IMG/VR virus record: IMGVR_UViG_3300025413_001239
DNA from: a virus
Lineage: Duplodnaviria; Caudoviricetes
Length of the DNA: 64,000 nucleotides
Reading direction: 5' to 3' (one strand)
Shown piece after piece: positions 3,975 to 41,624 of the stretch. The translations under genes were made by a program, and so were the position numbers. The notes under the pieces are model-generated. The model saw only the letters and a list, made by a program, of their open reading frames with translations, was not told the DNA's origin and did not search any database. How positions within the stretch are numbered: the first letter of the stretch is position 1; each line of letters opens with the position of its first letter.

Positions 3975-4762
3975 TTATCACGTTTGATATTACGATTGTG
4001 ATAACTACAAAGTGGTTGAAGATTGGAGTAATGATTTAATTTAATTACTTCGTCTTCAACTTTTGTTGTTTTAAGAGGTGTAATATGGTCAATATCCCAA
4101 CCATAGTTTTCAGTTCCGTTATAAAGTCCATAGTTATCCCAATTCATCCATGGTTCAAATAACCCCTCAAGATGCTGTTTAAACTCTTCAAATGTGCAAC
4201 CTAATATTTCGTATGTCTTAGATTTTTTTGTATAACCACCGTTTTTTATACTAACATTTATTCTATGTCGAATAGCATCTTTAGCTCGATAAAAAGGGTC
4301 TTTACGTTTTTCTATCAGTGATAGTTTTTCACGTTTTCTAACTTTATCCCAGTTATTTTTTCTATACTCTTTTTGTCTAATTTTTATACGTTCTTTATTT
4401 GCTTCGTAATAAGCTTTTAGTTTTTCTTTATTCTTTTGCGTATATTCGAAAGATTTTTGTTTTATCTTATCTTTATTCGCTTCTCGATATTTAAGTTTAA
4501 TTACTTTACTTTGTTCTTTAATACGGTCATTATTTTTCTGATACCATTGTTTTTTATATTCTTTTAGTTTATCAGAATTTAATTTAGCGTATTCTTTTTT
4601 TGTTACTGCGTATTTATCAAAGTTTTTTAAATATTCGGTGTGTTTCTTTTCTTTTTCACAAGACTTACAATAAGACCTTAATTTATTCTTAGTTTTATTG
4701 TATATTGTAAAACCAGATAATTGAATATCTAATTGGCATATACTACAAACTTTACTTTCCAT
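3971..4762 (-). CDS. HNH homing endonuclease
   Basis: Likely start MESKVCSIC at 4762; WMNWDNYG..WDIDHITP..NHYSNLQPLCS motif. Confidence 0.85.
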   Translation of the reverse strand: MESKVCSICQLDIQLSGFTIYNKTKNKLRSYCKSCEKEKKHTEYLKNFDKYAVTKKEYAKLNSDKLKEYKKQWYQKNNDRIKEQSKVIKLKYREANKDKIKQKSFEYTQKNKEKLKAYYEANKERIKIRQKEYRKNNWDKVRKREKLSLIEKRKDPFYRAKDAIRHRINVSIKNGGYTKKSKTYEILGCTFEEFKQHLEGLFEPWMNWDNYGLYNGTENYGWDIDHITPLKTTKVEDEVIKLNHYSNLQPLCSYHNRNIKRDN

Positions 4763-7411: not shown

Positions 7412-7471
7412 ATTTGGTAGTGTTAAGTAAATACCATATATTTGCATTTTATTAAACATAAAATTATACGC

Positions 7472-9442
7472 ATGAAAAATTTACTTACATTGATTTGCTT
7501 ATTAGTAACATTTCAATTAATCGCACAAGACACAATTAAGTCAAAGACTCTAGAACCAATACAAATTACTTGTGTTAGGGCTGATAAGAAAATCCCAGTA
7601 ACACAAAAAACGCTCTCCGATTCGGCTATTCAAGCGAATTATCAGGGTCAAGAAATACCTATGTTGTTAGGTTCTCAAACATCAATTTACACGAATTGTG
7701 ATGGTGGTCATAACGCTGGTTATAGTTACTTTAGCATCAGGGGTATTGACCAAACAAGAATAAACATAACTCTTAATGGTGTTCCATTGAATGAAGGTGA
7801 AGACATGGCTTGTTATACGTCTAATTATCCAAGTTTTACCAGCGCAATTCAATCTATGCAAATTCAACGTGGTGTGGGTACATCATCTAACGGCGCATCA
7901 TCCTTCGGTGGCTCATTGAACTTTCAAAGCAAGGATGGCCTTATTAAGGGTACTGATATTCAAATAGGTGGTGGTTCATTTAATACATCAAGATTTGACA
8001 TATCCACATCCACAGGTTTATCCAAACACAAATTAGCCTTATTCGCTAATATTGGTGGTATACAAACTGATGGCTTTAGAGATAATTCAGGTTGTAAGGG
8101 TGGTTCCGCTTTTGTGAGTCTTGGTTACTTCGGGAAGTCTAGTATTACAAAACTTAACCTATTAACAGGAATATCACAAAACAAACAAGCTTGGATGGGT
8201 TCAAGTGATTCAGCATTAGCAGCTAATTATCGTGATAACCCAAGAGGTGGTGATAATATGGATAATTTCAATCAAACGAATGTTCAATTGCAGAACATAA
8301 CAATGTTTAATACACGGTTTAAATTAACCAGCACTGCGTTTTATAATTACTTAGATGGTCACTATAATGTGTTTAACTTAAAGGATATACCAGTTAATAA
8401 TTATTTTGCATACGAAAGCCAGTATTCACGATGGATTGGTGCGGTAACTCAATTAGATTATAACTATGGTGATTTTAAGGTTACTTCAAGCCTTTCAGCC
8501 AGTACTTATACGAGGTTCCATAATGGTTATGAGATTTACGATACAACACTTACTGAATATCCCTATACTAATAGTGGTAAAAAGAATGATGCAAATGCAT
8601 TCATAAAGTTTAGTTATGACACTAAAAGAGTCTTGTATTATATCGACTTACAAGAAAGATTTGTTGATTATAAGTACTCTGGTGATACAAGTGTTTATCA
8701 AAGCTGGAAGTTCTTTAACCCAAAGGCTGGTGTTAAGTTCTTCATAAACAAGAGTTTGGATGTGTATTGGAGCGTAGGTTTATCTCATAGAGAACCAACA
8801 CACTCAATAATGCTTAATGGTTGGTTGTACTTAAACTCTTATAATCCGATTACAATAGTTAAGCCTGAGGAAGTAATTGATAATGAAATAGGTGTAAATT
8901 ACACGTCAAGTAAACTAAAATTACAAGCTAATGTTTATGTAATGAAATTTACGAATGAAATGATAGCTGCTGGGCCGATGGGTAATAACAGTCTTCCTAT
9001 TATGATGAATGTTCCTAATAGTCTAAGATATGGCTTCGAATTTGATTGTACTTATAAAGTAAATAAGTCGTTTACTTATGATATTAATTCAACATTATCT
9101 AATGGTCAGTTTAAAGTTGATAGCGGTACGTATAGCTACTTATTTAATCCAAATTTTATGTTTAAGCATTCGATTAACTATACACATAATAAGTTATTTG
9201 TAAGCCTTAATCAAGCATATATTTCAAGAGTTTACATTGATAAGGCTAATCAATTTACTTTGCCAATATCATCTACAATCGGTTTGAATCTTGGATATAC
9301 CTTTGGTCGTTATCAAGTATCAATTCAGGGTAACAATTTAACAGGTGAGAAGACTTATAGCAATGGTTCAGTTACTGGTGTTAGGTATAGAATACCTAAC
9401 GCTTTACAAAATTACTTCATAACCCTTAAAATACACTTATGA
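7472..9442 (+). CDS. TonB-dependent outer-membrane receptor
   Basis: Signal peptide MKNLLTLICLL..; plug motifs FSIRG, RINITLNGVPLN, IQRGVGTSSNG..GGSLNF; beta-barrel body. Confidence 0.9.
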   Translation: MKNLLTLICLLVTFQLIAQDTIKSKTLEPIQITCVRADKKIPVTQKTLSDSAIQANYQGQEIPMLLGSQTSIYTNCDGGHNAGYSYFSIRGIDQTRINITLNGVPLNEGEDMACYTSNYPSFTSAIQSMQIQRGVGTSSNGASSFGGSLNFQSKDGLIKGTDIQIGGGSFNTSRFDISTSTGLSKHKLALFANIGGIQTDGFRDNSGCKGGSAFVSLGYFGKSSITKLNLLTGISQNKQAWMGSSDSALAANYRDNPRGGDNMDNFNQTNVQLQNITMFNTRFKLTSTAFYNYLDGHYNVFNLKDIPVNNYFAYESQYSRWIGAVTQLDYNYGDFKVTSSLSASTYTRFHNGYEIYDTTLTEYPYTNSGKKNDANAFIKFSYDTKRVLYYIDLQERFVDYKYSGDTSVYQSWKFFNPKAGVKFFINKSLDVYWSVGLSHREPTHSIMLNGWLYLNSYNPITIVKPEEVIDNEIGVNYTSSKLKLQANVYVMKFTNEMIAAGPMGNNSLPIMMNVPNSLRYGFEFDCTYKVNKSFTYDINSTLSNGQFKVDSGTYSYLFNPNFMFKHSINYTHNKLFVSLNQAYISRVYIDKANQFTLPISSTIGLNLGYTFGRYQVSIQGNNLTGEKTYSNGSVTGVRYRIPNALQNYFITLKIHL

Positions 9443-9981
9443 TAGAGTTTATTGGTGCTTTATTCACGCTTTTATCAGCATATTATACTGTAAAAGAAAA
9501 GGTCATTTGTTGGCCGTTAGCGATAGCATCAACGATTATCTACATATATTTACTATATATTGAGAAATTGTATGGTCAGGTATTTGTCGATATATTAACG
9601 TTATTTCAATGCGCTTACGGTTGGTATTATTGGGATAAAACTGATAATAAGCAGCCTGAAAGACTTAAACCCATTAAGTTTGTTAGAGATATATTTCTTT
9701 TAGTTCTAATATCTAGTATTACAATATACTACATAAGAACATATACTAATAATCCACAACCAGTATCGGATATTACGTCAACATACTTAGCACTTTTAGC
9801 TAATTGGTATTTAGCTAAGAAGTTTATTGATGGGTTTTATGTTTGGGTTATAGCCGATATAATACTAGCGTATATGTTTTATTATCAACATATGTATTGG
9901 TCAATGGGTTTATTTATTATTTTAATAGGGTTCGCCCTTCAAGGTCAATTCGCATGGCAAAAGAGTTTAAAAACGGACTAG
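9439..9981 (+). CDS. pnuC: PnuC-family nicotinamide riboside/vitamin transporter
   Basis: TM pattern; WPLAI, LYGQ, YGWYYW, W-x-LAKKFIDGFYVWVIAD motifs. Confidence 0.9.
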   Translation: MIEFIGALFTLLSAYYTVKEKVICWPLAIASTIIYIYLLYIEKLYGQVFVDILTLFQCAYGWYYWDKTDNKQPERLKPIKFVRDIFLLVLISSITIYYIRTYTNNPQPVSDITSTYLALLANWYLAKKFIDGFYVWVIADIILAYMFYYQHMYWSMGLFIILIGFALQGQFAWQKSLKTD

Positions 9982-10955
9982 TACTTGGGAAATGTTTTCC
10001 ATTTCACTTAGGACATAAATATCTTATTGATTCAGCAATTAAGCAATGTGATACGGTTCACGTTATGGTTTGTTCACTTAAACGTGAAAATATAGCTGGT
10101 GAATTACGTTATGAATGGGTTAAAGAAACATATATGAATAACCCTAGTGTGAATGTTATTCATTGTGATGATGAAAATCCTCAACATCCACCAGAATGTG
10201 CTAGTGTTGATGAATTTTATAATAAGTATTGGGTACCGACTGTATACAAGCATGTTAAGGAACTGGATGTTGTATTTACTTCTGAGGATTACGGTGATGA
10301 ATTTGCCAGTTACTTAGGTGTTAAGCATGTGCTTGTTGATAAAGCTAGAACAGCTTATCCTGTATCTGGAACTTCGGTTAGAGAGAATCCTTATGCAAAT
10401 TGGGATTTAATACCTGATAATGTTAAAAAATACTTTATTAAAAAGATTGTTATTTTAGGTCCTGAATCTGTTGGTAAATCAACGATGGTTAAAAAGTTGG
10501 CTGAGCATTTGGGTTGTAAGTATATCGATGAGTTCGGTAGGACTTATACTGAATTAACTGGAACTGATAATCTTCAAATATTTGATTTTGAAGCGATAGC
10601 TCATTGGCATAATCATCATATTGAAAAGGCTGAAATTGATAAGTACTTAATAATTGATACAGAAGCGATTACAACTAAGATATTTGCTGAAATGTACTTA
10701 GGTAAACGTGAAAGTGAATCTAAATTCATAGATGAAATCATAAGTGAGCAACATTTCGATTTATACTTAGTGCTAAACGTTGATGTTCCTTGGGTTGATG
10801 ATGGTACAAGAGACTTTCCAGAGGGTCGTGAAGAGCATCTAAACACTATTATCTCTAATTTAGAGGAAAGAGGTTTAGAATACAAGCTTATTAGCGGTGA
10901 TAATTACGATGAAAGATTTGAAAAAGCCTTAGAAGAAGTTAAAAAGTTGGGATGA
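9954..10955 (+). CDS. nadR: NadR-like NMN adenylyltransferase / ribosylnicotinamide kinase (no HTH)
   Basis: GKCFPFHLGH nucleotidyltransferase motif, VSGTSVR, P-loop GPESVGKST, PWVDDGTR; likely start 9954. Confidence 0.9.
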   Translation: MAKEFKNGLVLGKCFPFHLGHKYLIDSAIKQCDTVHVMVCSLKRENIAGELRYEWVKETYMNNPSVNVIHCDDENPQHPPECASVDEFYNKYWVPTVYKHVKELDVVFTSEDYGDEFASYLGVKHVLVDKARTAYPVSGTSVRENPYANWDLIPDNVKKYFIKKIVILGPESVGKSTMVKKLAEHLGCKYIDEFGRTYTELTGTDNLQIFDFEAIAHWHNHHIEKAEIDKYLIIDTEAITTKIFAEMYLGKRESESKFIDEIISEQHFDLYLVLNVDVPWVDDGTRDFPEGREEHLNTIISNLEERGLEYKLISGDNYDERFEKALEEVKKLG

Positions 10956-10958
10956 CAT

Positions 10959-12194
10959 TTAAATAACAATTAAATCGTTATTTATTTGATTACGGACATT
11001 ATTGTTCATAATCACACTAGTGTAATCCAGTGGCTTTGTCATTGAAGCAAGGTGATTGTCGTAATATCTTTTCATTATGTTGATAGCTGAGTTTAAATCT
11101 CTATCTATTTCGACATTATCACTTAGTTTAACAGTTCTATCCTTTAACTCAACTTTATCTTTAAATAGCTTACCAGTAAGACTATTCAATTGAGTGGTGT
11201 ATTTTTCATCAATCTTAATTAAATCACATTGTTTATTTTGTGACTTATACTTAAGAAATTCTAAGAACATATTAATATTAGATTCATTAAATGATTTTCT
11301 AATACCCTTTTTATTCTTATTTACTCCTTCTGTTGACATAAGGGTTTTTACTGTTAAATCGCCAACTACAATTGTTTTGTAGTTCATATTCACTAATTTT
11401 TTACTCTGAATATGTAGAGTTTGTTTAATTTGACTATTCTTCTTATTATATAGTTTTCTTTTAACTTTATTTAATTTATTAAAGGATTTACTATTCTTTT
11501 GTTTTTTGCTTAACTTAGACTTAATCTTATTAATCTGTTTACCGAAGTACTGATTAATCCTCTTTGATTTATTTTTAAGAATAACAACGGTACCATTGTT
11601 ATCCACACCAGTACCTAAATTCTTTAGACCTAAATCAATAGCGAGTACTCTTGATTTAATTATTAAATCATCTGAGTAGTTTATTTTATCATCGACAACA
11701 ATATCACAAAGCCACTTATTATTAATAAATTTGACTCTAATTTCTTTAATATTTAATTCAGATAAGTTTGTTAAATGACTTGAATATTTAAAATTAATTT
11801 TATTTATTGAAATTATACTATTTTCTTTGAATATCCAACCATTTAGGTTAAAAACTAATGTATGATACTTTCCGAGTTCTTTTGTCTTTGGTGGTCTAGC
11901 TGTATTATCTTTTTTAATAAGTGTGAAGAAAGATTGGTATGATTGAAATATTTCAGCTGCCACAACTTGTGCTGCTTTTGCATTAAATTGTTTCCAAGAT
12001 TCCTTGGTTGAATATTTCAATGGTGGAATGAGGTTAATTAAATCAAACTTTGAGTATACCTTTTTAGTTGATTCATAGTGTTTTTGCTGAATATCAATAA
12101 GAGTGTTCCAAATATCCATACGAATATCAGACAACTGTTTTAGTTGAGATACCTGTTCTGTTGTTGGGTGTAACCTTATTGAGTATGTTTTCAT
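10959..12194 (-). CDS. tnpB: Solo TnpB-family RNA-guided nuclease with rearranged RuvC-II and no Zn finger
   Basis: YSIRLHPTTEQ N-terminus, AIDLGLK, VVGDL (G at canonical E), IDEKYTTQ, DRDLNSAINI. Confidence 0.85.
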   Translation of the reverse strand: MKTYSIRLHPTTEQVSQLKQLSDIRMDIWNTLIDIQQKHYESTKKVYSKFDLINLIPPLKYSTKESWKQFNAKAAQVVAAEIFQSYQSFFTLIKKDNTARPPKTKELGKYHTLVFNLNGWIFKENSIISINKINFKYSSHLTNLSELNIKEIRVKFINNKWLCDIVVDDKINYSDDLIIKSRVLAIDLGLKNLGTGVDNNGTVVILKNKSKRINQYFGKQINKIKSKLSKKQKNSKSFNKLNKVKRKLYNKKNSQIKQTLHIQSKKLVNMNYKTIVVGDLTVKTLMSTEGVNKNKKGIRKSFNESNINMFLEFLKYKSQNKQCDLIKIDEKYTTQLNSLTGKLFKDKVELKDRTVKLSDNVEIDRDLNSAINIMKRYYDNHLASMTKPLDYTSVIMNNNVRNQINNDLIVI

Positions 12195-12308
12195 TTAATA
12201 TATAATTAACTTTATTCTCTGTTATATATTATAAATATCAGGTAAAAATAAAAAAGACAATAAATTTCGAAAAAAGTTGGGATATTTATAATAAATATCT
12301 TAACAAAT

Positions 12309-13169
12309 ATGATTTCAAATATAAGAAAAATTTTAAGGGAAAACGTTGATAAAACGATAACTTGTCAGAAGTGTGGTTGGCATTGGAAAGAGTCTGAATC
12401 TTCAAAAGAAGAGATGTATAAGTGCCATAAGTGTGGCCATGATAATAAACTACCAAGACCATTTGTTGACCCAAACCAATTATCATTATTTGAATCGTTA
12501 AGGTCTAAAGTACTTAACAAAAAGCCTCTAAATGAAAAACTCTTATTAAAGAGTTGGGATGAATATGCTAAACTAGTAACCAAAGCATACGCTGAGGCAC
12601 CAGAATACGAATCAGATGCTGTAAGGCATTGGAACGCTCTTAATCAATCCAATTATACACTATTTAAAAGGCTTTTAAGTAAAATCAATGTACTTTTTGT
12701 TACGGTAGATAAATCTAAAGTTGGTGGTGTGAATATTCTTGGTAGAAACTATAAGATAATATATCAAGCTGGCGAACCATACGCAACTCAAAGTGAAATG
12801 AAAGCTGATTTACAAAAAACAGGGACACTTAAAATTAATATAGATTATTCTGACCATCCTATTTTTTCTGTTGAAGATAATATAGTATTTAGAACAGTAC
12901 ATGATTATATTGTTCATATCTTAGGTAATAAACAATTTGGTGCACAAGGTGAAATAGCTTCATATAATTTACACGCTAAATTAGTACCTAGAGAAGCTAT
13001 ACCAGCCATATTTACAGAGGTTGTTGGTCAAGCATGTACTAGGGTTGTAACTGGTAGTTTCCCAGTACAAAAAATTGCAATTCTTAAAGGTTTCGATTAT
13101 CTAAATATTGGTAAAGTTGAAGACTATGAAATAAAAAATAAAGAATTAGATTTGACTAATCCAAAATAA
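12309..13169 (+). CDS. Hypothetical phage protein with N-terminal Zn ribbon
   Basis: CQKCG...CHKCG; FRTVHDYIVH..GEIASYNLH motif. Confidence 0.6.
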   Translation: MISNIRKILRENVDKTITCQKCGWHWKESESSKEEMYKCHKCGHDNKLPRPFVDPNQLSLFESLRSKVLNKKPLNEKLLLKSWDEYAKLVTKAYAEAPEYESDAVRHWNALNQSNYTLFKRLLSKINVLFVTVDKSKVGGVNILGRNYKIIYQAGEPYATQSEMKADLQKTGTLKINIDYSDHPIFSVEDNIVFRTVHDYIVHILGNKQFGAQGEIASYNLHAKLVPREAIPAIFTEVVGQACTRVVTGSFPVQKIAILKGFDYLNIGKVEDYEIKNKELDLTNPK

Positions 13170-13260: not shown

Positions 13261-14124
13261 ATGCGAACATTTTGGAAGACTGAAGAAGTTGAATTATTAA
13301 AAGAATTGTATGAAAATCAAGGTTTGTCGATAAGTGAATTGTATCCGATTTTTAGTTTGAGATTTAATAGAACTTTAGATAGTGTTAAAGTTAAAATGGG
13401 TAAACTTAAACTAAAACATACTAAAGAACAAATAGCTAAATTAAAATCAAGGTTGAATTCTGGTGAATTAAATGGGATGTACAATAAAACATCTGCAATG
13501 AAGGGGTTAACTAAAGAAAATTCTGAAATTGTTAGATTAAAATCAGAAAAAACGTCTAAAACTAGAATAGAAATGTATAAAAAAGGATTATTACCAGATG
13601 TATCTGGGGAAAATAATCCAATGTTCGGGGCAACTCCTTGGTCGAAAGGTAAAACAAAATTTAATGATATTAGATTATATAATATTGGGATTAAAAGTTC
13701 AATTAGTAAAAAAGAATTGTGGTTAAAGAAAACTAATGAGGAAAAAGAAATCATAATAAGAAGATTAAATGATGCTATGATTCAAGTTAGGAAACCAACT
13801 AAAATTGAATTAAAAATGGTCGATTATTTAAGTAAATTAGATATTGAATTTATTAAAAATTTTAGAATAAAGAATTTTTTAGTTGATTTTTATTTACCTA
13901 ATAATAATTTAGTTATTGAATGTGACGGTGATTATTGGCATGCAAATCCATTAATTTATGAAGGAAAAGAGTTAGATAAGATTCAACTAAAAAATCGTAA
14001 CAGAGATAGAAAAAAGGAAGAAATGTTAATAAAATCCAACATTAATCTTGTTCGTTTTTGGGAATTTGATATTAAAAATCATTTTGAAAGTGTTGAACAG
14101 AAATTATTAACAATGTTAAAATAA
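13261..14124 (+). CDS. Homing endonuclease, NUMOD3-like repeats plus Vsr/DUF559-type nuclease
   Basis: GELNGMY, GENNPMFG repeats; VDFYLP..VIECDGDYWH..RFWE. Confidence 0.8.
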   Translation: MRTFWKTEEVELLKELYENQGLSISELYPIFSLRFNRTLDSVKVKMGKLKLKHTKEQIAKLKSRLNSGELNGMYNKTSAMKGLTKENSEIVRLKSEKTSKTRIEMYKKGLLPDVSGENNPMFGATPWSKGKTKFNDIRLYNIGIKSSISKKELWLKKTNEEKEIIIRRLNDAMIQVRKPTKIELKMVDYLSKLDIEFIKNFRIKNFLVDFYLPNNNLVIECDGDYWHANPLIYEGKELDKIQLKNRNRDRKKEEMLIKSNINLVRFWEFDIKNHFESVEQKLLTMLK

Positions 14125-14128
14125 ATAT

Positions 14129-15271
14129 ATGATAGATAAAATTGGTATTAGATATACGTTTAAGATTTCGGTACCACTAGATGTTTTAAAGATAAAAGAA
14201 GTTTTTACTAAGAATGGTCATCAACTATTTCTAGTTGGTGGTTGTATTCGTGATACCATATTAAATGTAACACCTAAAGATTTTGATTTAGTTACAAATG
14301 TTTCGCCAGAAGAGGTTATTAGAATTTTAAAGCATGAAAAGTTTGTTACAACAATATTAGAAACTGGAAAATCATTTGGTGTTATTAATGTTATAACTAG
14401 CGATAATGAATTTGAAATTGCTACGATGCGCAATGATGTGTTTAGTGATACACCAAATGGGAGGCATCCAGACCGTGTTATCTTTGGTGATATTTTTACT
14501 GATTGTATGCGAAGGGATTATACCATGAATGCGCTTTTTTATGACTTAGATACTAATGAAATAATTGACTTCGTTAATGGTGTTAATGATATTGAAAAAT
14601 CTTTAATTAAGGCGGTTGGGAATCCAGAAGAAAGATTTAAAGAAGATAAATTACGCAAACTTAGGGGCGTTAGGCTGGCGGCCAGATTTGGCTCTGAATT
14701 GGACCCTGAGATTGATGCCGCATTAAAAAGAGATGCCAGTCTGGAAGGTATATCTGGTGAAAGAATCAGAGATGAGTTTATAAAGGGTATCAAATCAGCT
14801 AAGTCAGTTGTTAAATTCTTGGAAATGCTTGATAGGTATCATTTATTTAATTGGATATTTAAGGGCTTACATGTAAATAAAGACTTTATTGAGGATAGAA
14901 ATGTTGTAGTTCTTATTGCTATTTTATTAAAGGGTAACAACATAGGTGTTATAGCTAAGCAATTGAACAATCTTAAGTATTCTGTTGATGAGATTAAATC
15001 AATCACATTCTTATTGAGTTTATTGCATTTAACACCTGAGACAGCAGTTGCTTTAAAGAGACAACAAAAGAACGCTTACACATCAAATCATCAAATAATT
15101 GATTTTGCTAACCGTGAAGGTTTAAATACAAGATTGATACATGCGTTTTTAAATTTTGAGTTGACCGTTACTGGCGAAGAAGTTATGCAAAAGTTCAATT
15201 TGAAGCAAGGCAAAGAGTTAGGTGATATGATAAATAAATTGGAATTGGATAATTTTAAAAAAAGTTTGTAA
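14129..15271 (+). CDS. cca: CCA-adding tRNA nucleotidyltransferase / poly(A) polymerase family
   Basis: LVGGCIRD, KDFDLVT, RRDYTMNAL, EDKLRKLRGVR, ERIRDE; tRNA genes in the window lack encoded CCA. Confidence 0.9.
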   Translation: MIDKIGIRYTFKISVPLDVLKIKEVFTKNGHQLFLVGGCIRDTILNVTPKDFDLVTNVSPEEVIRILKHEKFVTTILETGKSFGVINVITSDNEFEIATMRNDVFSDTPNGRHPDRVIFGDIFTDCMRRDYTMNALFYDLDTNEIIDFVNGVNDIEKSLIKAVGNPEERFKEDKLRKLRGVRLAARFGSELDPEIDAALKRDASLEGISGERIRDEFIKGIKSAKSVVKFLEMLDRYHLFNWIFKGLHVNKDFIEDRNVVVLIAILLKGNNIGVIAKQLNNLKYSVDEIKSITFLLSLLHLTPETAVALKRQQKNAYTSNHQIIDFANREGLNTRLIHAFLNFELTVTGEEVMQKFNLKQGKELGDMINKLELDNFKKSL

Positions 15272-17275: not shown

Positions 17276-18568
17276 ATGAAGTGTATTAAAACAAGGAAAA
17301 TTCAGTTGTTGCCATTAGGTGATTTTAATGAAACCTACAAATACGTTAATAATTTAAGTTCAGGCTTAGCGTCACTCGGTAATGAAATGATAAGGAGACA
17401 TGTTTTATCATTTTATGAAATGGACGTACTAAAAGATTCAACTCCAGATGCTAAAACTAGAACTAATCTAATGAAGGAAAAATACGGAATGTCACTCCAA
17501 AATATGGGTTATGATGTTTCAAAAAAGTATTCAGCCACAATTCCTTCGAATATTCGCACAACATTTAATCAAAAGGTCTTTAAAAAAATAAAAGACAGTT
17601 ATTTTGGTATTTCAATAAATAAAGAATCTATACCATCATTCAGAAAAGACTCAATGGCAATTCCATTTAGTTATGATAATAATATCAGTTTGAACGAATT
17701 TGGGGTGTATGATTTTAAATTCTTTAATAATGTCAATTTTAAATTAAACTTTGGACGTGATAGGTCTAATAATAAAGTTATCATTGACAGAATTTTATCT
17801 AATGAATATAAGCCATTATCTTCACATATAAAAATTGATAAGAAAAAAATATTCTTAGATTTAACATATTCTTTTGACTCAGATGAAAATGTTAACATAT
17901 CTAAAGATAAAATTGTTGGTGTTGATTTAGGTATAAATAGACCTATGACAATTGCTAGGGAAGATGGTACTTATGCAAAACAAATAGAAATCGGTGGTAA
18001 GATTCAATACTCTAGATTATCAATTCAAAAACAAAGAAGAAGCTTACAAAGTGCTTTAAGGCATTCATCTGGTGGTCATGGTACTGGTAAAAAAATAGCT
18101 AAATTAAAATCATTAAAAGATTATGAACATAATTTCATGAAAACCACTAATGATACACTAAGTCGTGAATTAATAAAATATTGCGTTAATGAAGGTGTTG
18201 GTGTAATTAAATTAGAAAATCTAACTGGTATAACAGAAAATGCTAATAATTTTCTTAAGTCTTGGTCTTATTATCAATTACAACAAATGATTGAGTATAA
18301 AGCTGCTGAATTTGGAATTACAGTATTATATGTTAATCCTAGATATACCTCTCAAACTTGTCCAACTTGTGGCAATATTGATAAAACTCAAAGAGATTCA
18401 AAGGATAAAACAAAATTTGCTTGTTCAAATGAAATTTGTTCTGATATTAATATAAATAAAGATGCTGATATTATTGGTGCCTTTAATATCTCAAAAAGAG
18501 ATGGTGTTATCGCTTCTAAAAAAATATTACAAGAAAAAAGTGATAAAAAGTTGTTAGTTTCAGAATAA
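17276..18568 (+). CDS. Compact type V CRISPR effector (Cas12f/TnpB-like, 430 aa)
   Basis: RuvC triad GVDLG, IKLENL, KDADIIGAFNI; Zn finger CPTC..CSNEIC; KTRKIQL N-terminus; immediately upstream of anti-repeat and CRISPR array. Confidence 0.85.
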   Translation: MKCIKTRKIQLLPLGDFNETYKYVNNLSSGLASLGNEMIRRHVLSFYEMDVLKDSTPDAKTRTNLMKEKYGMSLQNMGYDVSKKYSATIPSNIRTTFNQKVFKKIKDSYFGISINKESIPSFRKDSMAIPFSYDNNISLNEFGVYDFKFFNNVNFKLNFGRDRSNNKVIIDRILSNEYKPLSSHIKIDKKKIFLDLTYSFDSDENVNISKDKIVGVDLGINRPMTIAREDGTYAKQIEIGGKIQYSRLSIQKQRRSLQSALRHSSGGHGTGKKIAKLKSLKDYEHNFMKTTNDTLSRELIKYCVNEGVGVIKLENLTGITENANNFLKSWSYYQLQQMIEYKAAEFGITVLYVNPRYTSQTCPTCGNIDKTQRDSKDKTKFACSNEICSDININKDADIIGAFNISKRDGVIASKKILQEKSDKKLLVSE

Positions 18569-27581: not shown

Positions 27582-28109
27582 TTAAGCAATAAACTTAAAT
27601 GAATTAACACGATTTAGCCATCCCTTAAGGAATTTACCTTGTGCTGGGTGGTGTGCAACGATGTCATTATAATACTTGGTCCTAGATGCTTTGATTTTAT
27701 CAAATAATTCGCTTTGATTAGCCTTATTGATAGCTTCAACACTTTTAGGTCCAAATACACCATCAGCAGTTATACCAAGGCATTGTTGCGTTTTGATAGC
27801 AGCAGTACCCACACCACAGTTATAAGCAAAATCTACAATCATTTCTGTAATTGATTGGTTAGTAATTGAATCCCCACGAAGTCTATCCCAGTAATGTGCC
27901 TTAGCGATGCTCATAGCATCTTCAGCTGTAATAAGTTTAAGGTCATCAACATCAATGTCACCATCACCGTCTTTATCATAACCCTTAGCTTTCCATTCGG
28001 AAAGAATCACACCATACTTAGTCTCTTTTCCATTGTCGCCAGGTACACATTCGAATGAACTTCCCTCAAATTGTACTAATTTAGGAAAATATTTTTTAAA
28101 ATCACTCAT
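27582..28109 (-). CDS. Endolysin, glycosyl hydrolase 108 with peptidoglycan-binding tail
   Basis: EG..D.G..TKYG, DFAYNCG, ADGVFGPKS, FLKGWLNR. Confidence 0.9.
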   Translation of the reverse strand: MSDFKKYFPKLVQFEGSSFECVPGDNGKETKYGVILSEWKAKGYDKDGDGDIDVDDLKLITAEDAMSIAKAHYWDRLRGDSITNQSITEMIVDFAYNCGVGTAAIKTQQCLGITADGVFGPKSVEAINKANQSELFDKIKASRTKYYNDIVAHHPAQGKFLKGWLNRVNSFKFIA

Positions 28110-29196
28110 TTTCTATATATTTAAATTTTTTATTATAAACACTATTTCTTTCACCTTTACATACCTTACAAATACTAGCTTCTTTTAAATTTAAGATATT
28201 AGCCGCATCCCTTATTGTATTAAATATCTGAATTATATTATTTTCATCATCTATTAATGCAATTTTTTTTCTTTTTGGTATTTTTGGTTTAGCACGTTCT
28301 TTATTGGCCCAATATTTATCCCTACCAATTTTTAATTTTTCAAGAGTTTCCTCTGTTTTTGGAACACCTTTATGTTTCTTACTAAGATTTTTAAGATGTT
28401 CTTTTCTTTTTTCAGTCATGATATATTCTTTTTTTATTTTAACTGGTTTTTCTTTTTTTAATCTGTAACCCTTGACAACATAATGAATTTCATTATTTAA
28501 ATTTTTTAAATTTAAATAATCGTCTTTACTAATATATTTCCAATCATAACCCATACCATTTATAGATTGCTTAGATAAATAACGTGTTATCGCACTTTCA
28601 CTAATATTTGTAAGTTTAATTGCCTCAGAAATTGATTGAAAAACATATATAACTCTATCATCTTTAAGTTGTGCAATACATCTACTAGTTGTATTATCTA
28701 TACCTTTAGGTGTGATTTTACCCTTGTTAGATAAACTAATTTTTAACTTTGTTTCTTGACTTAATATTCTACCCTTAGCTGATGGTGGTTTAAATCCAGA
28801 TTTTTTATGAGCTTCACTAATTTTTCGTTTAGCTTCTTCAGTATGTTTATACCCCTTATTCGCAACACTAATTTTTAATTTTATTTCATTGGTCAATTTA
28901 CTAGATTTTCCACCCTCTAAAATATTTAACATTTTATAACCTAAATCCTTATAGTGTTTGATATAATATATCTCGTATTCGTCAAATATACTCTGTTCAA
29001 TATTTAAGGGTAATTCTAGTATTATTTCAAAATTATGTGCATCAAACCCATATTTTTTAATTGAATTATATATTGCTGGTTGTTTTATTGTTTGTAATCT
29101 CCTGTAATTTGATTTTCTTTTAACAAGATTTCTAGTTTGTCCAATGTAAATTTTATTACTTGGCGATGTTATTTTGTAAATATAAGCTTTATTCAT
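28102..29196 (-). CDS. GIY-YIG homing endonuclease with NUMOD3/NUMOD1 repeats
   Basis: YIYKITSPSNKIYIGQT, HTEEAKRKIS, F.SISEA; likely start 29196. Confidence 0.9.
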   Translation of the reverse strand: MNKAYIYKITSPSNKIYIGQTRNLVKRKSNYRRLQTIKQPAIYNSIKKYGFDAHNFEIILELPLNIEQSIFDEYEIYYIKHYKDLGYKMLNILEGGKSSKLTNEIKLKISVANKGYKHTEEAKRKISEAHKKSGFKPPSAKGRILSQETKLKISLSNKGKITPKGIDNTTSRCIAQLKDDRVIYVFQSISEAIKLTNISESAITRYLSKQSINGMGYDWKYISKDDYLNLKNLNNEIHYVVKGYRLKKEKPVKIKKEYIMTEKRKEHLKNLSKKHKGVPKTEETLEKLKIGRDKYWANKERAKPKIPKRKKIALIDDENNIIQIFNTIRDAANILNLKEASICKVCKGERNSVYNKKFKYIENE

Positions 29197-29346
29197 AATG
29201 TTCTTTATTATAAATATCATAAGATTATATAATGTACAGTCAAAAAATAAAATCTATATAAATATTTTTTAAAAATTGCCATTTTAGTTGGTTCTAGGGT
29301 TGTTCTAAATTTTAATTAAATTATTAATTATTGGTAAATGTTTTAT

Positions 29347-31407: not shown

Positions 31408-31455
31408 TTTTGGTGGATTAAATAAAATCCCTTACATTTGCTGAAAATAAAAATA

Positions 31456-33051
31456 ATGGAAAAGTATATAACAGCAATGTTCGCTTACCCATCTGGTAGT
31501 GGACTTCATATTGGGCATTGGTATAATTATGCCATTGTGGATTCATATTGCAAAGTACAAAAATACAAGGGTAATCAAGTGTTTCAACCGTTTGGTTGGG
31601 ATTCATTTGGTCTTCCTGCTGAGAACTACGCTAAAAAAGTTGGTCGTAACCCTAAAGAGGTTACGGAAGAAAATATTGTTTCGTTTGAAAATGAGATGAA
31701 ACGAATGAATACTTCATTCGATATTAAGTTCTCAACACATTCTGAGGAGTATCAAGAGCGCACTCAATGGCTTTTTAATAAGCTTAAAGAACATGGCCTT
31801 GCATATAAGGCTAAACGTGCGCAATGTTATTGCCCATCGTGTGAAACTGTTCTTGCAAATGAACAAGTTAAGAATACTAAAGTAGTGTCTGGTCTTCCTG
31901 ACGATGGCAACTGTGAACGTTGTAATACAAAAGTTACTGTCGTTGAAAAAGAACAATGGTTCTTTAAGATAACAGCTTATGCTGACCGTCTTATTGAAGG
32001 ACTTAACACAGTTGATTACCCTAATAAGACAAAAAAGCAACAAATAGAATGGATTGGTAAATCTGAGGGCTATGAAATAGACTTCGGTAACGGTGTCGTA
32101 GTGTTTACTACAAAGCCTGAAACAATCCTTGATGTTGAGTTTATCGTTGTACCTCTTGAAGAAGATGGTATCGAAAAACAAATAGGTGAAGCAACATGCC
32201 CAGTCAGCGGTAAAACTATTCCTATTTGGACAGCCAATTATGTTATTAAGGGTTACGGTACTGGTTACGTTATGGGTGTTCCTAACGATGATAAGAGGGA
32301 CCGAGACTTCGCTATCAGACATGCAATCGAATTTAATGAAGATAAAAGCAATATCTCAGATGAATCGTTTGTGAAGACTTTTGCTAAACCTAAGACTAAT
32401 TACAGACTTAAGGATTGGTGTGTATCGAGGCAAAGAAGCTGGGGTTGTCCTATTCCTGTTGAGGATGAAACAGATACGCTTGACACGTTTGTAGATAGTT
32501 CATTTTATACTATTGAATACGATAAGACAAGACCTGTTGATGTTTATGTTGGTGGTAACGAACACGCATGTGGTCATTTGATTTTTTCCAGATTTATCTG
32601 TAAATTTTTATTTGATATTGGTTATATTGATTTCGATGAACCATTTAAACAAGTGATTCATCAAGGTATGATACTTGGAACCGATGGTGAGAAGATGTCT
32701 AAATCTAAGGGTAATGTAATTAACCCTGATAGCTATTCACCTCAATTATTAAAAATGTATCTAATGTTTATAAACCATTATTTTGATGGCGGTAAATGGC
32801 AAGATAACGGATATAAAGGTTGTGAAAGATTTAAAAATAAATTATTTAACTGGCTTAATACAGCTGAGGATAACATTACCGATACAATTGATTTTTATAA
32901 ATTTGAATCAGTTATTTTAGACTATTGGGATAGATGGAAAACAAATAAAGTTGTTTCGGAATGGATGGTTTTTTATAATAACAATAAAGATAAAAAAATT
33001 AGCAAAGAGATGGCTACAAAAATAGAGTATTTCTTCAATACTTGTTTTTAA
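31456..33051 (+). CDS. leuS: Leucyl-tRNA synthetase, shortened form
   Basis: MFAYPSGSGLHIGH, GWDSFGLPAENYA, WCVSRQRSWG, DTFVDSS, YVGGNEHA, KMSKS. Confidence 0.9.
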   Translation: MEKYITAMFAYPSGSGLHIGHWYNYAIVDSYCKVQKYKGNQVFQPFGWDSFGLPAENYAKKVGRNPKEVTEENIVSFENEMKRMNTSFDIKFSTHSEEYQERTQWLFNKLKEHGLAYKAKRAQCYCPSCETVLANEQVKNTKVVSGLPDDGNCERCNTKVTVVEKEQWFFKITAYADRLIEGLNTVDYPNKTKKQQIEWIGKSEGYEIDFGNGVVVFTTKPETILDVEFIVVPLEEDGIEKQIGEATCPVSGKTIPIWTANYVIKGYGTGYVMGVPNDDKRDRDFAIRHAIEFNEDKSNISDESFVKTFAKPKTNYRLKDWCVSRQRSWGCPIPVEDETDTLDTFVDSSFYTIEYDKTRPVDVYVGGNEHACGHLIFSRFICKFLFDIGYIDFDEPFKQVIHQGMILGTDGEKMSKSKGNVINPDSYSPQLLKMYLMFINHYFDGGKWQDNGYKGCERFKNKLFNWLNTAEDNITDTIDFYKFESVILDYWDRWKTNKVVSEWMVFYNNNKDKKISKEMATKIEYFFNTCF

Positions 33052-40257: not shown

Positions 40258-41624
40258 TGTTCATTAAAACTTAAAAAATATTAGTAAAAATTAGATAAAA
40301 ATAAATGCGTGTATTTTTGTCTTTTTCATTTTTTCAATATATTTATTATTAAGGGTGTAAATACATCCATCGTTAAATTATGTTAAGAGCAATTAAAATA
40401 AGACTTTACCCAAATAAAACTCAACAAAGTTATATTAATAACTTGATGGGTTGTTATCGTAAAGTATATAATCTATCTCTTAATTATAAGATAAACGAAT
40501 ATAACTTAAATGGTGAAAACGCTAATATGAAAAGTATTGGTAATCAATTTCATAATAATTGGACAAAATCAGATGATTACCAATACCTAAATAATCATAA
40601 CACAAAAGTTTTGAAACAAGCAATTATTAATATGCTTGATTCGTATAAAAGATTTTTTGTTAATGGTAATGGTTATCCTAAATTTAAATCAAAACATGAT
40701 AATAAACAATCATGCAGATTTCCATCAGAAGCAATATCTAAACGTAACGATTATTCATCATATAAACTAACACTTATATCACAATTAAAAGATATTAAAT
40801 TTAGTTGTTCTGAAGAATATTCAAAATACTTAAACAAGCATAAAGATAATATTAGGTCTGCAACATTAACCAAAAATAAATCAGGTGAGTATTATTTAAG
40901 TATCTTAATTGATGGAGATTTATTAAAATCATTAAACACACCAAGTAATCAATTTATTGGTATTGATTTAGGTATAAAGGATTTTATTATAACGTCTAAT
41001 GGGGAAAGATTTGAAAATATTAAGATAAAAAGGGGTAATGAAAAAAAGTTAGCTAGACTACATCGTAAGTTATCTAAAAAACAAAAAGGAAGCAAGAATA
41101 AAGAAAAAGCGAGAATTAAGTTAGCTAAATTTAATCATAAACTAACTAATATTAAAGAAGAATATTTACATAAGATAAGTAATCAATTATTAAACGAAAA
41201 TCAAGTTATTGTAATTGAGGACTTAAATGTGAAGGGTATGATGAAAAATCATAATTTAGCAAAATCAATACAAGAATTAAGTCTTTACAATTTTAAGAGT
41301 AAATTATTGTATAAGAGTAATTGGTATAATAGAACAATAATTGAGATAGATAGATTTTATCCTAGTTCAAAGTTATGTTCATCTTGTGGGTATAAGAATA
41401 TTGATTTAGAACTGAGTGATAGGGAATGGACTTGTCCATCATGTAAAACAAAGCATGATAGAGATTTTAATGCTTCTATTAATATTCTAAATGAGGGGGT
41501 AAGGTTATATAATAATATAATACCCATCCGTTGTGGGGAATTAACGCCTTTGGAGAGTAGTCAACAGACACTCAATGAATTAGGAAATCGGGATTTGCAT
41601 AATATTGTGTAAGTTTCGTTGAAC
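40258..41624 (+). mobile_element. Non-autonomous IS605/IS1341-type element carrying only tnpB
   Basis: TGAAC immediately before the left end and at the right end; excision restores ATG AAC GGT ACT.. ORF coupled to the upstream gene. Confidence 0.65.
40380..41612 (+). CDS. tnpB: TnpB RNA-guided endonuclease (canonical)
   Basis: AIKIRLYPN HTH, GIDLGIKD, VIEDLNVKGM, FYPSSKLCSSCG..CPSC, DRDFNASINI. Confidence 0.95.
   Translation: MLRAIKIRLYPNKTQQSYINNLMGCYRKVYNLSLNYKINEYNLNGENANMKSIGNQFHNNWTKSDDYQYLNNHNTKVLKQAIINMLDSYKRFFVNGNGYPKFKSKHDNKQSCRFPSEAISKRNDYSSYKLTLISQLKDIKFSCSEEYSKYLNKHKDNIRSATLTKNKSGEYYLSILIDGDLLKSLNTPSNQFIGIDLGIKDFIITSNGERFENIKIKRGNEKKLARLHRKLSKKQKGSKNKEKARIKLAKFNHKLTNIKEEYLHKISNQLLNENQVIVIEDLNVKGMMKNHNLAKSIQELSLYNFKSKLLYKSNWYNRTIIEIDRFYPSSKLCSSCGYKNIDLELSDREWTCPSCKTKHDRDFNASINILNEGVRLYNNIIPIRCGELTPLESSQQTLNELGNRDLHNIV

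What the first reader, a model, noticed from the sequence alone, without database searches (positions are those of the whole stretch)
10941..12283. TnpB with rearranged catalytic site, flanked by a 13-bp direct repeat
Seen: VVGDL at the usual RuvC-II Glu, a downstream DEKYT Glu, and no Zn-finger cysteines. AAAAAGTTGGGAT occurs at both 10941-10953 and 12271-12283; joining the copies restores a nadR ending (KLGYL*) fused to the next promoter. The right end reads ATGTCA directly after the stop codon. Established: rearranged RuvC-II marks the TnpB branch related to Fanzors; IS200/605 elements normally make no target duplication. Inference: unusual insertion mechanism, and the predicted guide partly matches the element's own left flank.
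Basis: partly seen in the sequence, partly recalled or inferred. Interest (0 to 1): 0.6.

Follow-up and report, generated by a model that had tools for sequence, protein, structure and literature searches.

The report
Solo phage TnpB with target-copy scar
A transposase-less RNA-guided nuclease gene (tnpB, with its guide RNA) sits in the last codons of a giant phage's nadR gene, flanked by a real 13-base copy of the insertion site that this transposon family is not supposed to make and that looks most like a cut-and-repair scar.

Summary
The ORF at 10959-12194 (-) is a 411-aa TnpB. It has Gly278 where RuvC-II normally has Glu, a compensating Glu330, no zinc-finger cysteines, and intact Asp187 and Asp366. 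The Gly/alternative-Glu swap co-varies in 122 of 122 homologues and marks one well-supported clade. This type is already published (RuvC-II-rearranged "RIIr"/TnpB2). The clade occurs almost only on phage contigs.

The 13-bp repeat is exact and longer than in every control. Two related phages (L073, L074) have the site uninterrupted. Close NadR relatives end ...KLGYL*, as joining the two copies predicts. So this is a genuine 1317-bp insertion plus a duplication.

A covarying guide-RNA scaffold, with a pseudoknot, ends exactly at base 10952. The repeat is therefore 2 shared bases plus the first 11 bases that the guide would read.

Relatives have ordinary IS200/IS605 hairpin ends and no significant flanking repeat. 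This copy lacks the left-end hairpin. My best reading (inferred) is a repair scar from guide-directed homing or recombination between occupied and empty phage genomes, not a new transposition chemistry.

Earlier unchecked notes of this scan describe similar target-copy scars beside TnpB elements on other DNA.

The parts
9954..10955 (+). nadR (NMN adenylyltransferase / ribosylnicotinamide kinase type), shortened by two codons. Its TGA stop (10953-10955) is formed at the junction with the element.
   Evidence: Pfam AAA_28 plus cytidylyltransferase-like hits. Relatives end KLGYL*.
10941..10953 (.). Repeat copy A (right-end side). 10941-10951 is native nadR sequence. 10952-10953 (AT on the minus strand) is also the last two bases of the element.
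10932..10951 (-). Predicted 20-nt guide segment and target (CCCAACTTTTTAACTTCTTC on the minus strand), antisense to the nadR codons EEVKKLG.
   Evidence: Lies directly 3' of the scaffold end fixed by the pseudoknot. Only one full match in the window.
10952..11110 (-). Guide-RNA (omegaRNA) scaffold overlapping the 3' end of tnpB. Helix 11048-11033; pseudoknot ATGAC (11042-11038) with GTCAT (10956-10952); helix 11032-11015; terminal hairpin. The 5' limit is approximate.
   Evidence: RNAalifold finds 16 pairs, 10 with compensatory changes. 98.8% of cells pair versus 30-45% in slid controls, and the pseudoknot covaries in four pair combinations. Fold z-score -4.4.
10959..12194 (-). tnpB, 411 aa. 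Asp187 (11634-11636), Gly278 (11361-11363), Glu330 (11205-11207), Asp366 (11097-11099). No zinc-finger cysteines.
12195..12270 (-). Short left end (76 nt) with a promoter-like ATATTTATAAT box (12239-12223). It lacks the subterminal hairpin that relatives carry.
   Evidence: Hairpins of type GAAAGCCCAC..CTTTAG..GTGGGATGAATT are present in L001, L053, L054, L058, L060, L061-66, L069 and L071.
12271..12283 (.). Repeat copy B (left-end side). It is native sequence, contiguous with the orphaned nadR tail.
12284..12291 (+). Orphaned nadR tail ATTTATAA (Tyr-Leu-stop once joined to copy B).
   Evidence: Alignment with empty sites L073 and L074; NadR C-termini.
12309..13169 (+). Downstream gene (zinc-ribbon N-terminus fused to a conserved domain of unknown function). 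It follows the nadR stop directly in empty alleles.

Best explanation
This is a transposase-less (IS1341-type) member of the IS200/IS605 family. It consists of a tnpB gene plus its guide-RNA scaffold, inserted antisense into the last two codons of the phage's nadR gene.

SHOWN. The protein belongs to the published RuvC-II-rearranged TnpB type (Gly for the canonical Glu, replacement Glu 52 residues downstream), in a zinc-finger-less subclade found almost only on phage contigs. The insertion is real, because related phages have the site uninterrupted. The structured guide-RNA scaffold ends exactly at base 10952. The 13-bp repeat is therefore 2 bases that the native site and the element end share (AT) plus the first 11 bases of the sequence the guide would read. 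This copy lacks the left-end hairpin that a TnpA transposase needs, and no transposase was seen in the window.

INFERRED. The TnpB-guide complex recognises the uninterrupted nadR end of related, co-infecting phages and cuts it, so the cassette is copied in or the rival genome is damaged (homing). The repeat is a scar of one such event, or of plain recombination between an occupied and an empty genome. The right side was restored by homology. The left break end kept the motif-proximal 11 bases of the target and was joined to the left end by end-joining or microhomology. It is not a transposase-made target-site duplication.
For: Family and catalytic type: 122/122 covariation of Gly with the alternative Glu; rearranged clade support 98, zinc-less clade support 98; confident model; top structural hits are TnpB 8iaz and 8h1j. 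PMC10691335 and PMC10530073 describe this rearrangement and show such enzymes are active.

Real insertion: NadR relatives end KLGYL*. Empty sites L073 and L074 read ...AAGTTGGGATATTTAT... as one piece with no tnpB.

Repeat beyond chance.

Scaffold and its exact 3' end.

Relatives have canonical left and right hairpins sharing the loop TCTTTAG, and show no significant flanking repeat.

Junction microhomology: the left junction lies in an AAYTTTTT stretch shared by the native target and the left-end interior of relative L001.

Spread: the clade is abundant, with 581 clusters at E<=1e-60, and phage-borne. The exact TnpB occurs on 8 contigs and the truncated NadR on 9, each set including a 343,332-bp contig.

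Possible second occupancy: a 93%-identical TnpB (P0392) and a NadR only 62% identical that also stops after ...KLG (P0281) both list a longest contig of 12,868 bp. This hints at the same site occupied in a diverged phage.

Literature: IS200/IS605 elements make no TSD, and homing into co-infecting phages has been proposed (PMC13565253).
Against: No cleavage, guide RNA or recognition motif (TAM) has been demonstrated. Only this one copy out of 22 related loci has a clearly significant repeat. L002's 8-nt repeat with the same geometry has p of about 0.035. The terminal part of the right end is 11 nt shorter than in relatives L001, L002 and L059, so the guide RNA may be impaired. No donor-type allele (occupied, without repeat) has therefore been seen, and the P0392/P0281 co-location rests only on equal contig lengths. 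P0281's ...KLG end could also be a simple nonsense mutation.
Confidence: 0.5

Rival explanations
1. The structure arose by illegitimate, microhomology-mediated recombination or template switching between an occupied and an empty phage genome during co-infection or replication, with no involvement of TnpB cutting.
For: The same structure is predicted. An 8-of-10 AAYTTTTT-type microhomology exists between the native target and the left-end interior of L001. Large phages recombine heavily, and this region is mosaic among relatives.
Against: It does not explain why the duplicated segment starts exactly at the first guide position. That coincidence follows naturally if the break was guide-directed.
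Confidence: 0.2
2. TnpA supplied in trans excised the element imprecisely, taking 11 nt of right flank with it. It then pasted the element at the same recognition motif in another, empty genome copy.
For: Relatives have TnpA-type hairpin ends. Extra bases carried on the circle junction would end up between the recognition motif and the left end, as observed.
Against: It requires re-insertion at exactly the same site among very many AT-rich motifs. This copy has no left-end hairpin for TnpA to act on. No Y1-transposase-like ORF was found in the window by a crude motif search.
Confidence: 0.12
3. This is a true target-site duplication from staggered-cut integration, for example by a DDE transposase acting in trans as in the DDE-associated TnpB branches, or by an unknown integrase.
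For: A flanking direct repeat is the classical signature. DDE-mobilised TnpBs exist (PMC10691335).
Against: There are no terminal inverted repeats beyond a weak 7-of-8 match (my reading; none listed). The family's ends are asymmetric hairpins. 21 related loci lack a significant repeat.
Confidence: 0.05
4. The left-side copy is kept because it is useful. A recognition motif plus an 11-nt seed-only match would let TnpB-RNA bind without cutting, next to its own promoter and the downstream gene. That would give autoregulation or self-immunity. This does not exclude the scar origin.
For: The native AAATAT precedes the left copy, whereas the element's GTCAT precedes the full-length right copy. The allele is stable on 8-9 contigs.
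Against: Purely inferential. The motif is undetermined, and relatives show no conservation of such a copy.
Confidence: 0.08

Closest known systems
RuvC-II-rearranged TnpBs (RIIr clades of Altae-Tran et al. 2023, PMC10691335; 'TnpB2', e.g. Thermoplasma volcanium TvTnpB, PMC10530073)
   Same: Gly replaces the canonical RuvC-II Glu. A conserved Glu lies about 45-52 residues downstream, just before the (former) zinc finger. RuvC-I and RuvC-III Asp are intact. The guide RNA is encoded at the right end. Zinc-finger loss and virus-specific branches are both reported for TnpB.
   Different: Assignment to a named branch (RIIr-4 versus RIIr-5) was not tested. This subclade combines the rearrangement with complete loss of the four cysteines and is seen almost only on phage contigs.
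ISDra2 / ISFba1 TnpB-omegaRNA of IS200/IS605 (PDB 8h1j, 8exa, 8iaz; PMC8612924)
   Same: Same fold (best structural matches) and same domain set. The guide-RNA scaffold overlaps the 3' end of the gene and contains a pseudoknot. The guide is taken from the DNA just beyond the right end. The family has hairpin ends and no inverted repeats.
   Different: Those have the canonical Glu and a C4 zinc finger, are mobilised by an adjacent TnpA, and make no flanking duplication. Here there is no TnpA, the left-end hairpin is missing, and there is a 13-bp (11+2) junction repeat.
Transposon homing by TnpB (Meers et al. 2023, 10.1101/2023.03.14.532601; 'non-restorative homing' in PMC13565253) and free-standing homing endonucleases of T-even phages
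   Same: A nuclease gene sits between conserved phage genes. Its target is the uninterrupted allele of relatives, while the occupied allele is protected because the element splits the site.
   Different: Homing has not been shown for this element. Published homing gives seamless junctions, not a copy of the target seed.
Fanzor1/2 (PDB 9b0l; PMC10530073, PMC11832414)
   Same: They share the RuvC-II rearrangement and the TnpB core fold.
   Different: Fanzors are eukaryotic or giant-virus proteins and often sit in DDE or other transposons with inverted repeats and duplications. Here the ends are IS200/IS605-like. Fanzor2 ranks below bacterial TnpBs in the fold search.

Membership tests
TnpB (IS200/IS605 OrfB, OMEGA nuclease) | OrfB_IS605 (RuvC) and TNB domains plus the N-terminal HTH, above curated thresholds | tested here: met
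   PF01385 43.4 bits (cut-off 30.5), PF07282 41.3 (26.3), PF12323 29.0 (21)
TnpB (IS200/IS605 OrfB, OMEGA nuclease) | TnpB/Cas12f-like fold | tested here: met
   AF2 model pLDDT 85.8. Foldseek top hits are 8iaz and 8h1j at E about 3e-17.
TnpB (IS200/IS605 OrfB, OMEGA nuclease) | Structured guide-RNA scaffold at the 3' end of the gene, ending at the right end | tested here: met
   Covarying helices and pseudoknot. No Rfam family matched.
RuvC-II-rearranged TnpB (RIIr / TnpB2) | Non-acidic residue (Gly) at the canonical RuvC-II Glu | tested here: met
   Gly278 aligned to Glu of 83 canonical homologues
RuvC-II-rearranged TnpB (RIIr / TnpB2) | Conserved alternative Glu about 45 residues downstream | tested here: met
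   Glu330 (+52). Present in 39 of 39 Gly-type and 0 of 83 Glu-type sequences.
RuvC-II-rearranged TnpB (RIIr / TnpB2) | Alternative Glu lies next to the two catalytic Asp in 3D | not testable with these tools
   Model coordinates are not exposed. Only the secondary structure is known: Glu330 directly follows strand 324-329.
RuvC-II-rearranged TnpB (RIIr / TnpB2) | Groups with other rearranged TnpBs in a tree | tested here: met
   FastTree, 122 sequences. Rearranged set is one side of a branch with support 98; zinc-less subclade support 98. Quick method, unrooted.
IS200/IS605 element (IS1341 type) | Subterminal hairpins at the left and right ends, no inverted repeats | tested here: not met
   Relatives have both hairpins. 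This copy has no left-end hairpin. It keeps only a rearranged right-end hairpin.
IS200/IS605 element (IS1341 type) | No target-site duplication | tested here: not met
   13-bp junction repeat, verified against empty sites
IS200/IS605 element (IS1341 type) | Y1 (HUH) TnpA available in cis or trans | tested here: inconclusive
   None adjacent. A motif search of the 64-kb window found none. The rest of the roughly 343-kb genome and the host were not searched.
DDE-mobilised TnpB elements (IS630/IS1595-type ends) | Terminal inverted repeats and a fixed-length duplication | tested here: not met
   No inverted repeat joins the two ends. Relatives lack repeats.
Fanzor | Eukaryotic or giant-virus host, closer to Fanzors than to bacterial TnpBs | tested here: not met
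   The element is in a phage of bacteria. Fanzor2 (9b0l) ranks 5th, behind TnpB and Cas12f. No Fanzor sequence was placed in a tree.

The most novel reading that the evidence does not exclude
The junction repeat is a molecular footprint of RNA-guided homing between co-infecting phages. TnpB cut the empty nadR end and the cassette was copied in. The motif-proximal 11 bases of the target survived on the left break end. If such seed-copy scars recur beside many transposase-less TnpB elements, as unchecked notes of this scan suggest for other genomes, they would be a sequence-only marker. It would show that TnpB cassettes spread by homing without TnpA, and it could be used to read off guide start and recognition motif.
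Probability: 0.3. Interest if true: 0.65.

Novelty: new member of a known kind. Interest (0 to 1): 0.42.

Why it matters
The protein type is already described, so its catalytic rearrangement adds little. Two things are of value. First, this is a well-documented natural case, with empty sites in hand, of an IS200/IS605-type tnpB cassette carrying a flanking copy of its own guide target, which the family's textbook mechanism does not produce. Second, it shows a large, phage-restricted, zinc-finger-less TnpB radiation whose members have no transposase. If the scar reading is right, such repeats give direct genomic evidence that TnpB cassettes move between phage genomes by cut-and-copy homing. They would also mark the guide start and candidate recognition motif for compact nucleases that could be tested as editors.

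Tried and rejected
The contigs of the closest relatives (P0272 NadR 92%, P0001 downstream protein 96%, P0392 TnpB 93%, P0281) could not be read.
2. An exact search for the predicted empty site in viral contigs found nothing. Single-protein scans with NadR and the downstream protein found nothing useful. The one metagenome scan returned only zinc-ribbon look-alikes.
3. A gapped pattern for the predicted empty site of relative L002 found nothing, so L002's 8-nt repeat stays unverified.
4. No Rfam family matched.
5. GenBank phages have no DNA match and only distant TnpBs.
6. I tested whether flanking repeats are general in the clade. They are not significant apart from the window.
7. I considered that the left repeat copy was part of an element hairpin, or that the ancestor had a tandem repeat. 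Both were rejected because empty alleles carry one contiguous copy and NadR ends KLGYL*.
8. I considered that the right end stops at ATGTC or ATGTCA. The pseudoknot covariation places it after ATGTCAT.
9. I checked for terminal inverted repeats. Only a weak 7-of-8 match exists.
10. Apparent resemblances between right flanks and left-hairpin arms in L054, L057 and L049 were judged to be noise in AT-rich DNA.
11. Matching contig lengths between the TnpB and NadR cluster tables gave two pairs, 12,868 and 13,457 bp. The second NadR (P0351) has an unrelated C-terminus, so it tells nothing about the site.
Full report
WHAT IS THERE

The window comes from a very AT-rich, roughly 343-kb phage. The longest contig carrying this exact NadR is 343,332 bp, and earlier notes call it a freshwater Bacteroidota phage.

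On the plus strand lies an operon of a TonB-dependent receptor (7442-9442), pnuC (9439-9981) and nadR (9954-10955). After it comes a gene for a zinc-ribbon/unknown-domain protein (12309-13169).

Between nadR and that gene, on the minus strand, is a 411-codon ORF (10959-12194). It matches the three Pfam families of TnpB above their curated thresholds.

AAAAAGTTGGGAT occurs exactly at 10941-10953 and at 12271-12283.

THE PROTEIN

I aligned it with 25 homologues and with the window's own canonical TnpB (40380-41612). Gly278 of VVGDL falls on the RuvC-II glutamate. Glu330 of IDEKY falls on a position that is Pro, Arg or Ala in canonical proteins. Asn, Thr, Leu and Asn fall on the four zinc-finger cysteines. 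Asp187 and Asp366 are invariant.

Among 122 full-length homologues the two states are mutually exclusive. 39 sequences have Gly plus the downstream Glu, 83 have the canonical Glu without it, and none is mixed.

A quick maximum-likelihood tree puts the 39 on one side of a branch with support 98. The 15 cysteine-less ones, including ours, form a clade inside it with support 98.

The AlphaFold model is confident (pLDDT 85.8). Its best structural matches are ISFba1 and ISDra2 TnpB, then Cas12f. Fanzor2 comes fifth.

This catalytic rearrangement is published. PMC10691335 describes RuvC-II-rearranged clades in which Gly replaces the Glu and another Glu compensates. It also notes virus-specific branches and branches that lost the zinc finger. 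PMC10530073 shows that such a TnpB (TvTnpB) and Fanzors are active and places the alternative Glu about 45 residues downstream.

So the protein is a new member of a known type. The link to Fanzors is only that they share the rearrangement.

THE FAMILY AND ITS ENDS

A profile of the close clade recovered 25 further loci on IMG/VR viral contigs. It recovered only three on prokaryote genome bins. One of those bin contigs has the same length, 81,877 bp, as viral contig L054. The big protein collection holds 581 clusters at E<=1e-60. The clade is therefore abundant and essentially phage-borne.

All right ends finish in a conserved ...(A/G)T(G/T)TCA(T/G/C), after which the sequences diverge.

Many loci (L001, L053, L054, L058, L060, L061-66, L069, L071) have a left-end hairpin. 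Its loop (TCTTTAG) recurs in the right-end hairpin. That is the classic IS200/IS605 architecture recognised by a Y1 TnpA.

None of these loci has room for a tnpA gene, so they are IS1341-type, mobilised in trans if at all.

THE GUIDE RNA

The last roughly 160 nt of the gene plus the right end are more conserved at the DNA level than the protein needs. They fold into a consensus structure with 10 of 16 pairs showing compensatory changes.

I then noticed that the loop of the first helix can pair with the last five bases of the element. The two variable pairs switch together between subgroups: ATGAC/GTCAT, ATGAA/TTCAT, CTGAC/GTCAG and ATGAG/CTCAT.

Counted over 22 loci, 98.8% of cells pair, against 30-45% when the partner is slid by 1-3 columns.

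This pseudoknot fixes the scaffold's 3' end, and so the right boundary of the element, after ATGTCAT. In window coordinates that is base 10952. The guide would start at 10951 and read CCCAACTTTTTAACTTCTTC, the antisense of the nadR codons EEVKKLG.

The window copy keeps both core helices and the pseudoknot. It is 11 nt shorter than L001, L002 and L059 between the stop codon and the terminal heptamer, and has a different, A/U-rich terminal hairpin. Whether its RNA still works is unknown.

IS IT A REAL INSERTION WITH A REAL DUPLICATION?

Yes. The closest NadR proteins in public data end ...EEVKKLGYL (P0272, 92% identical, two residues longer than ours) or close variants. That is exactly what joining the two repeat copies predicts.

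Two IMG/VR phage contigs with NadR 78% and 73% identical (L073, L074) read ...GAAAAGTTGGGATATTTATTATAA. After 8-9 nt comes the ATG of the zinc-ribbon gene. There is a single copy of the repeated bases and no tnpB.

A more distant syntenic phage (L009) also lacks the element.

So the window equals the empty site plus 1317 bp (10954-12270) plus a second copy of 13 bp.

The TGA that now ends nadR is made at the junction. NadR loses only Tyr-Leu.

The 13-bp match is longer than any of 342 free and 462 anchored comparisons between right flanks and upstream regions of different loci.

Because the last AT of the element is needed for the pseudoknot, the truly duplicated native sequence is 11 bp. The native site happens to have the same AT just before it.

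WHY THE DUPLICATION?

IS200/IS605 elements make no target duplication and have no inverted repeats (PMC13565253), and IS607 likewise (PMC6188088).

In my 22 loci, the subgroup with clearly definable ends (L058, L061-L071) shows none. Only L002 has an 8-nt repeat with the same geometry, which is not significant on its own (p about 0.035). The duplication is therefore a property of this copy, not of the family.

This copy also lacks the left-end hairpin. Its 76-nt left end aligns with the promoter-proximal part of the L001 and L052 left ends. Its first bases resemble the start of the left end in L059 and in the L066 group.

The join between the native TTTTT and the left end lies in an AAYTTTTT stretch that the native target shares with the left-end interior of L001.

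The duplicated bases are precisely guide positions 1-11, and they sit next to the native AAATAT. The full-length target at the right end is instead preceded by the element's own GTCAT.

The simplest account I can give is a break in an empty allele, repaired from an occupied genome. The right side was repaired by homology. The left break end was not trimmed back to the flank, but joined to the left end by end-joining or microhomology.

If TnpB made the break, this is a homing scar. If not, it is ordinary illegitimate recombination between phages.

I cannot separate these two. Imprecise TnpA excision followed by re-insertion, or a staggered-cut integrase, are less likely for the reasons given under the rivals.

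HINTS OF SPREAD

- The exact TnpB is on 8 contigs and the truncated NadR on 9, so the allele is stable in nature.
- A subfamily at least 87% identical to ours, with the same shortened C-terminus, sits on several other contigs.
- One of these, P0392 (93% identical), lists a longest contig of 12,868 bp. So does NadR P0281, which is only 62% identical to ours and also stops after ...KLG, while its 88%-identical relatives continue with YLL.
- If these two genes are adjacent, the same cassette occupies the same site in a clearly diverged phage. That is what homing predicts.

EARLIER NOTES OF THIS SCAN

After I had reached the scar reading, look-ups showed unchecked notes on other genomes. They describe TnpB elements whose left junction copies the first bases of their own guide target, with the same interpretation. 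Other notes describe the same Gly/alternative-Glu, zinc-less TnpB type in other phages. These are leads, not evidence. I did not test them.

VERDICT

The protein is a known type. The element is a transposase-less IS200/IS605-family tnpB/guide-RNA cassette of a phage-restricted clade.

The flanking repeat is real and unusual for the family. It is best read as a repair or recombination scar that happens to copy the guide's seed, possibly left by homing.

Interest is moderate. It would rise if the scar proves recurrent and tied to TnpB cutting.

Noticed in passing
window 12544-12560: A third near-copy of the repeat lies inside the downstream gene (codons LKSWDE). TTAAAGAGTTGGGATGA matches the nadR/right-end junction TTAAAAAGTTGGGATGA at 16 of 17 bases. 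On the minus strand it is preceded by TTCAT. It matches guide positions 1-13 with one mismatch at position 8. Probably chance; the coding sequence is conserved in homologues.
   Followed up: partly
window 40380-41612 (+): A second, canonical TnpB (IEDL, CxxC...CxxC, 410 aa), 33% identical to ours over the C-terminal 228 aligned residues. No transposase is adjacent. With the Cas12f at 17276-18568, the window holds three TnpB-superfamily nucleases.
   Followed up: partly
L073:2890-4854, L078:1935-4180, L079:4613-6752: In three related phages the CCA-adding enzyme gene is hit in two pieces (residues about 8-107 and about 102-380) separated by roughly 1.0-1.2 kb. This suggests an intron or homing-endonuclease insertion at one position. 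The window's copy (14129-15271) is uninterrupted.
   Followed up: no
window 12309-13169: The downstream protein is a fusion. Residues 1-46 (zinc ribbon) match a reading frame that starts right after nadR in L073, L074 and L075. Residues about 83-280 form a widespread conserved domain. In L009 that domain follows nadR directly and carries a long C-terminal extension (692 aa).
   Followed up: partly
window 13261-14124: 287-aa ORF with a DUF559 / Vsr-like restriction-endonuclease fold domain at its C-terminus. It looks like a free-standing homing-endonuclease-type gene between the downstream protein and the CCA enzyme.
   Followed up: no
window 12179-12206 (+): A sigma-70-like TTGAGT-16-TATAAT (10 of 12) lies inside the 5' end of tnpB and points outward toward the downstream gene, which the insertion cut off from the nadR operon. 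It may be an outward promoter. It is a consensus match only.
   Followed up: no
L002:2897-2904 and 4262-4269: Relative L002 has an 8-nt ATTTATTA repeat with the same geometry as the window's. It starts at the AT of the right end and ends just before the left-end block. It lies next to a terminator-like hairpin that could alternatively be the left-end hairpin. A search for its empty site found nothing.
   Followed up: partly
window 28102-29220 (-) and 31438-33051 (+): A GIY-YIG/NUMOD homing-endonuclease gene, and a 537-aa leucyl-tRNA-synthetase-like ORF that is short for that enzyme (possibly split or truncated).
   Followed up: no
L067:2800-3770: A truncated tnpB (277 codons) preceded by a left-end-type hairpin in inverted orientation. 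It may be a rearranged or nested element.
   Followed up: no
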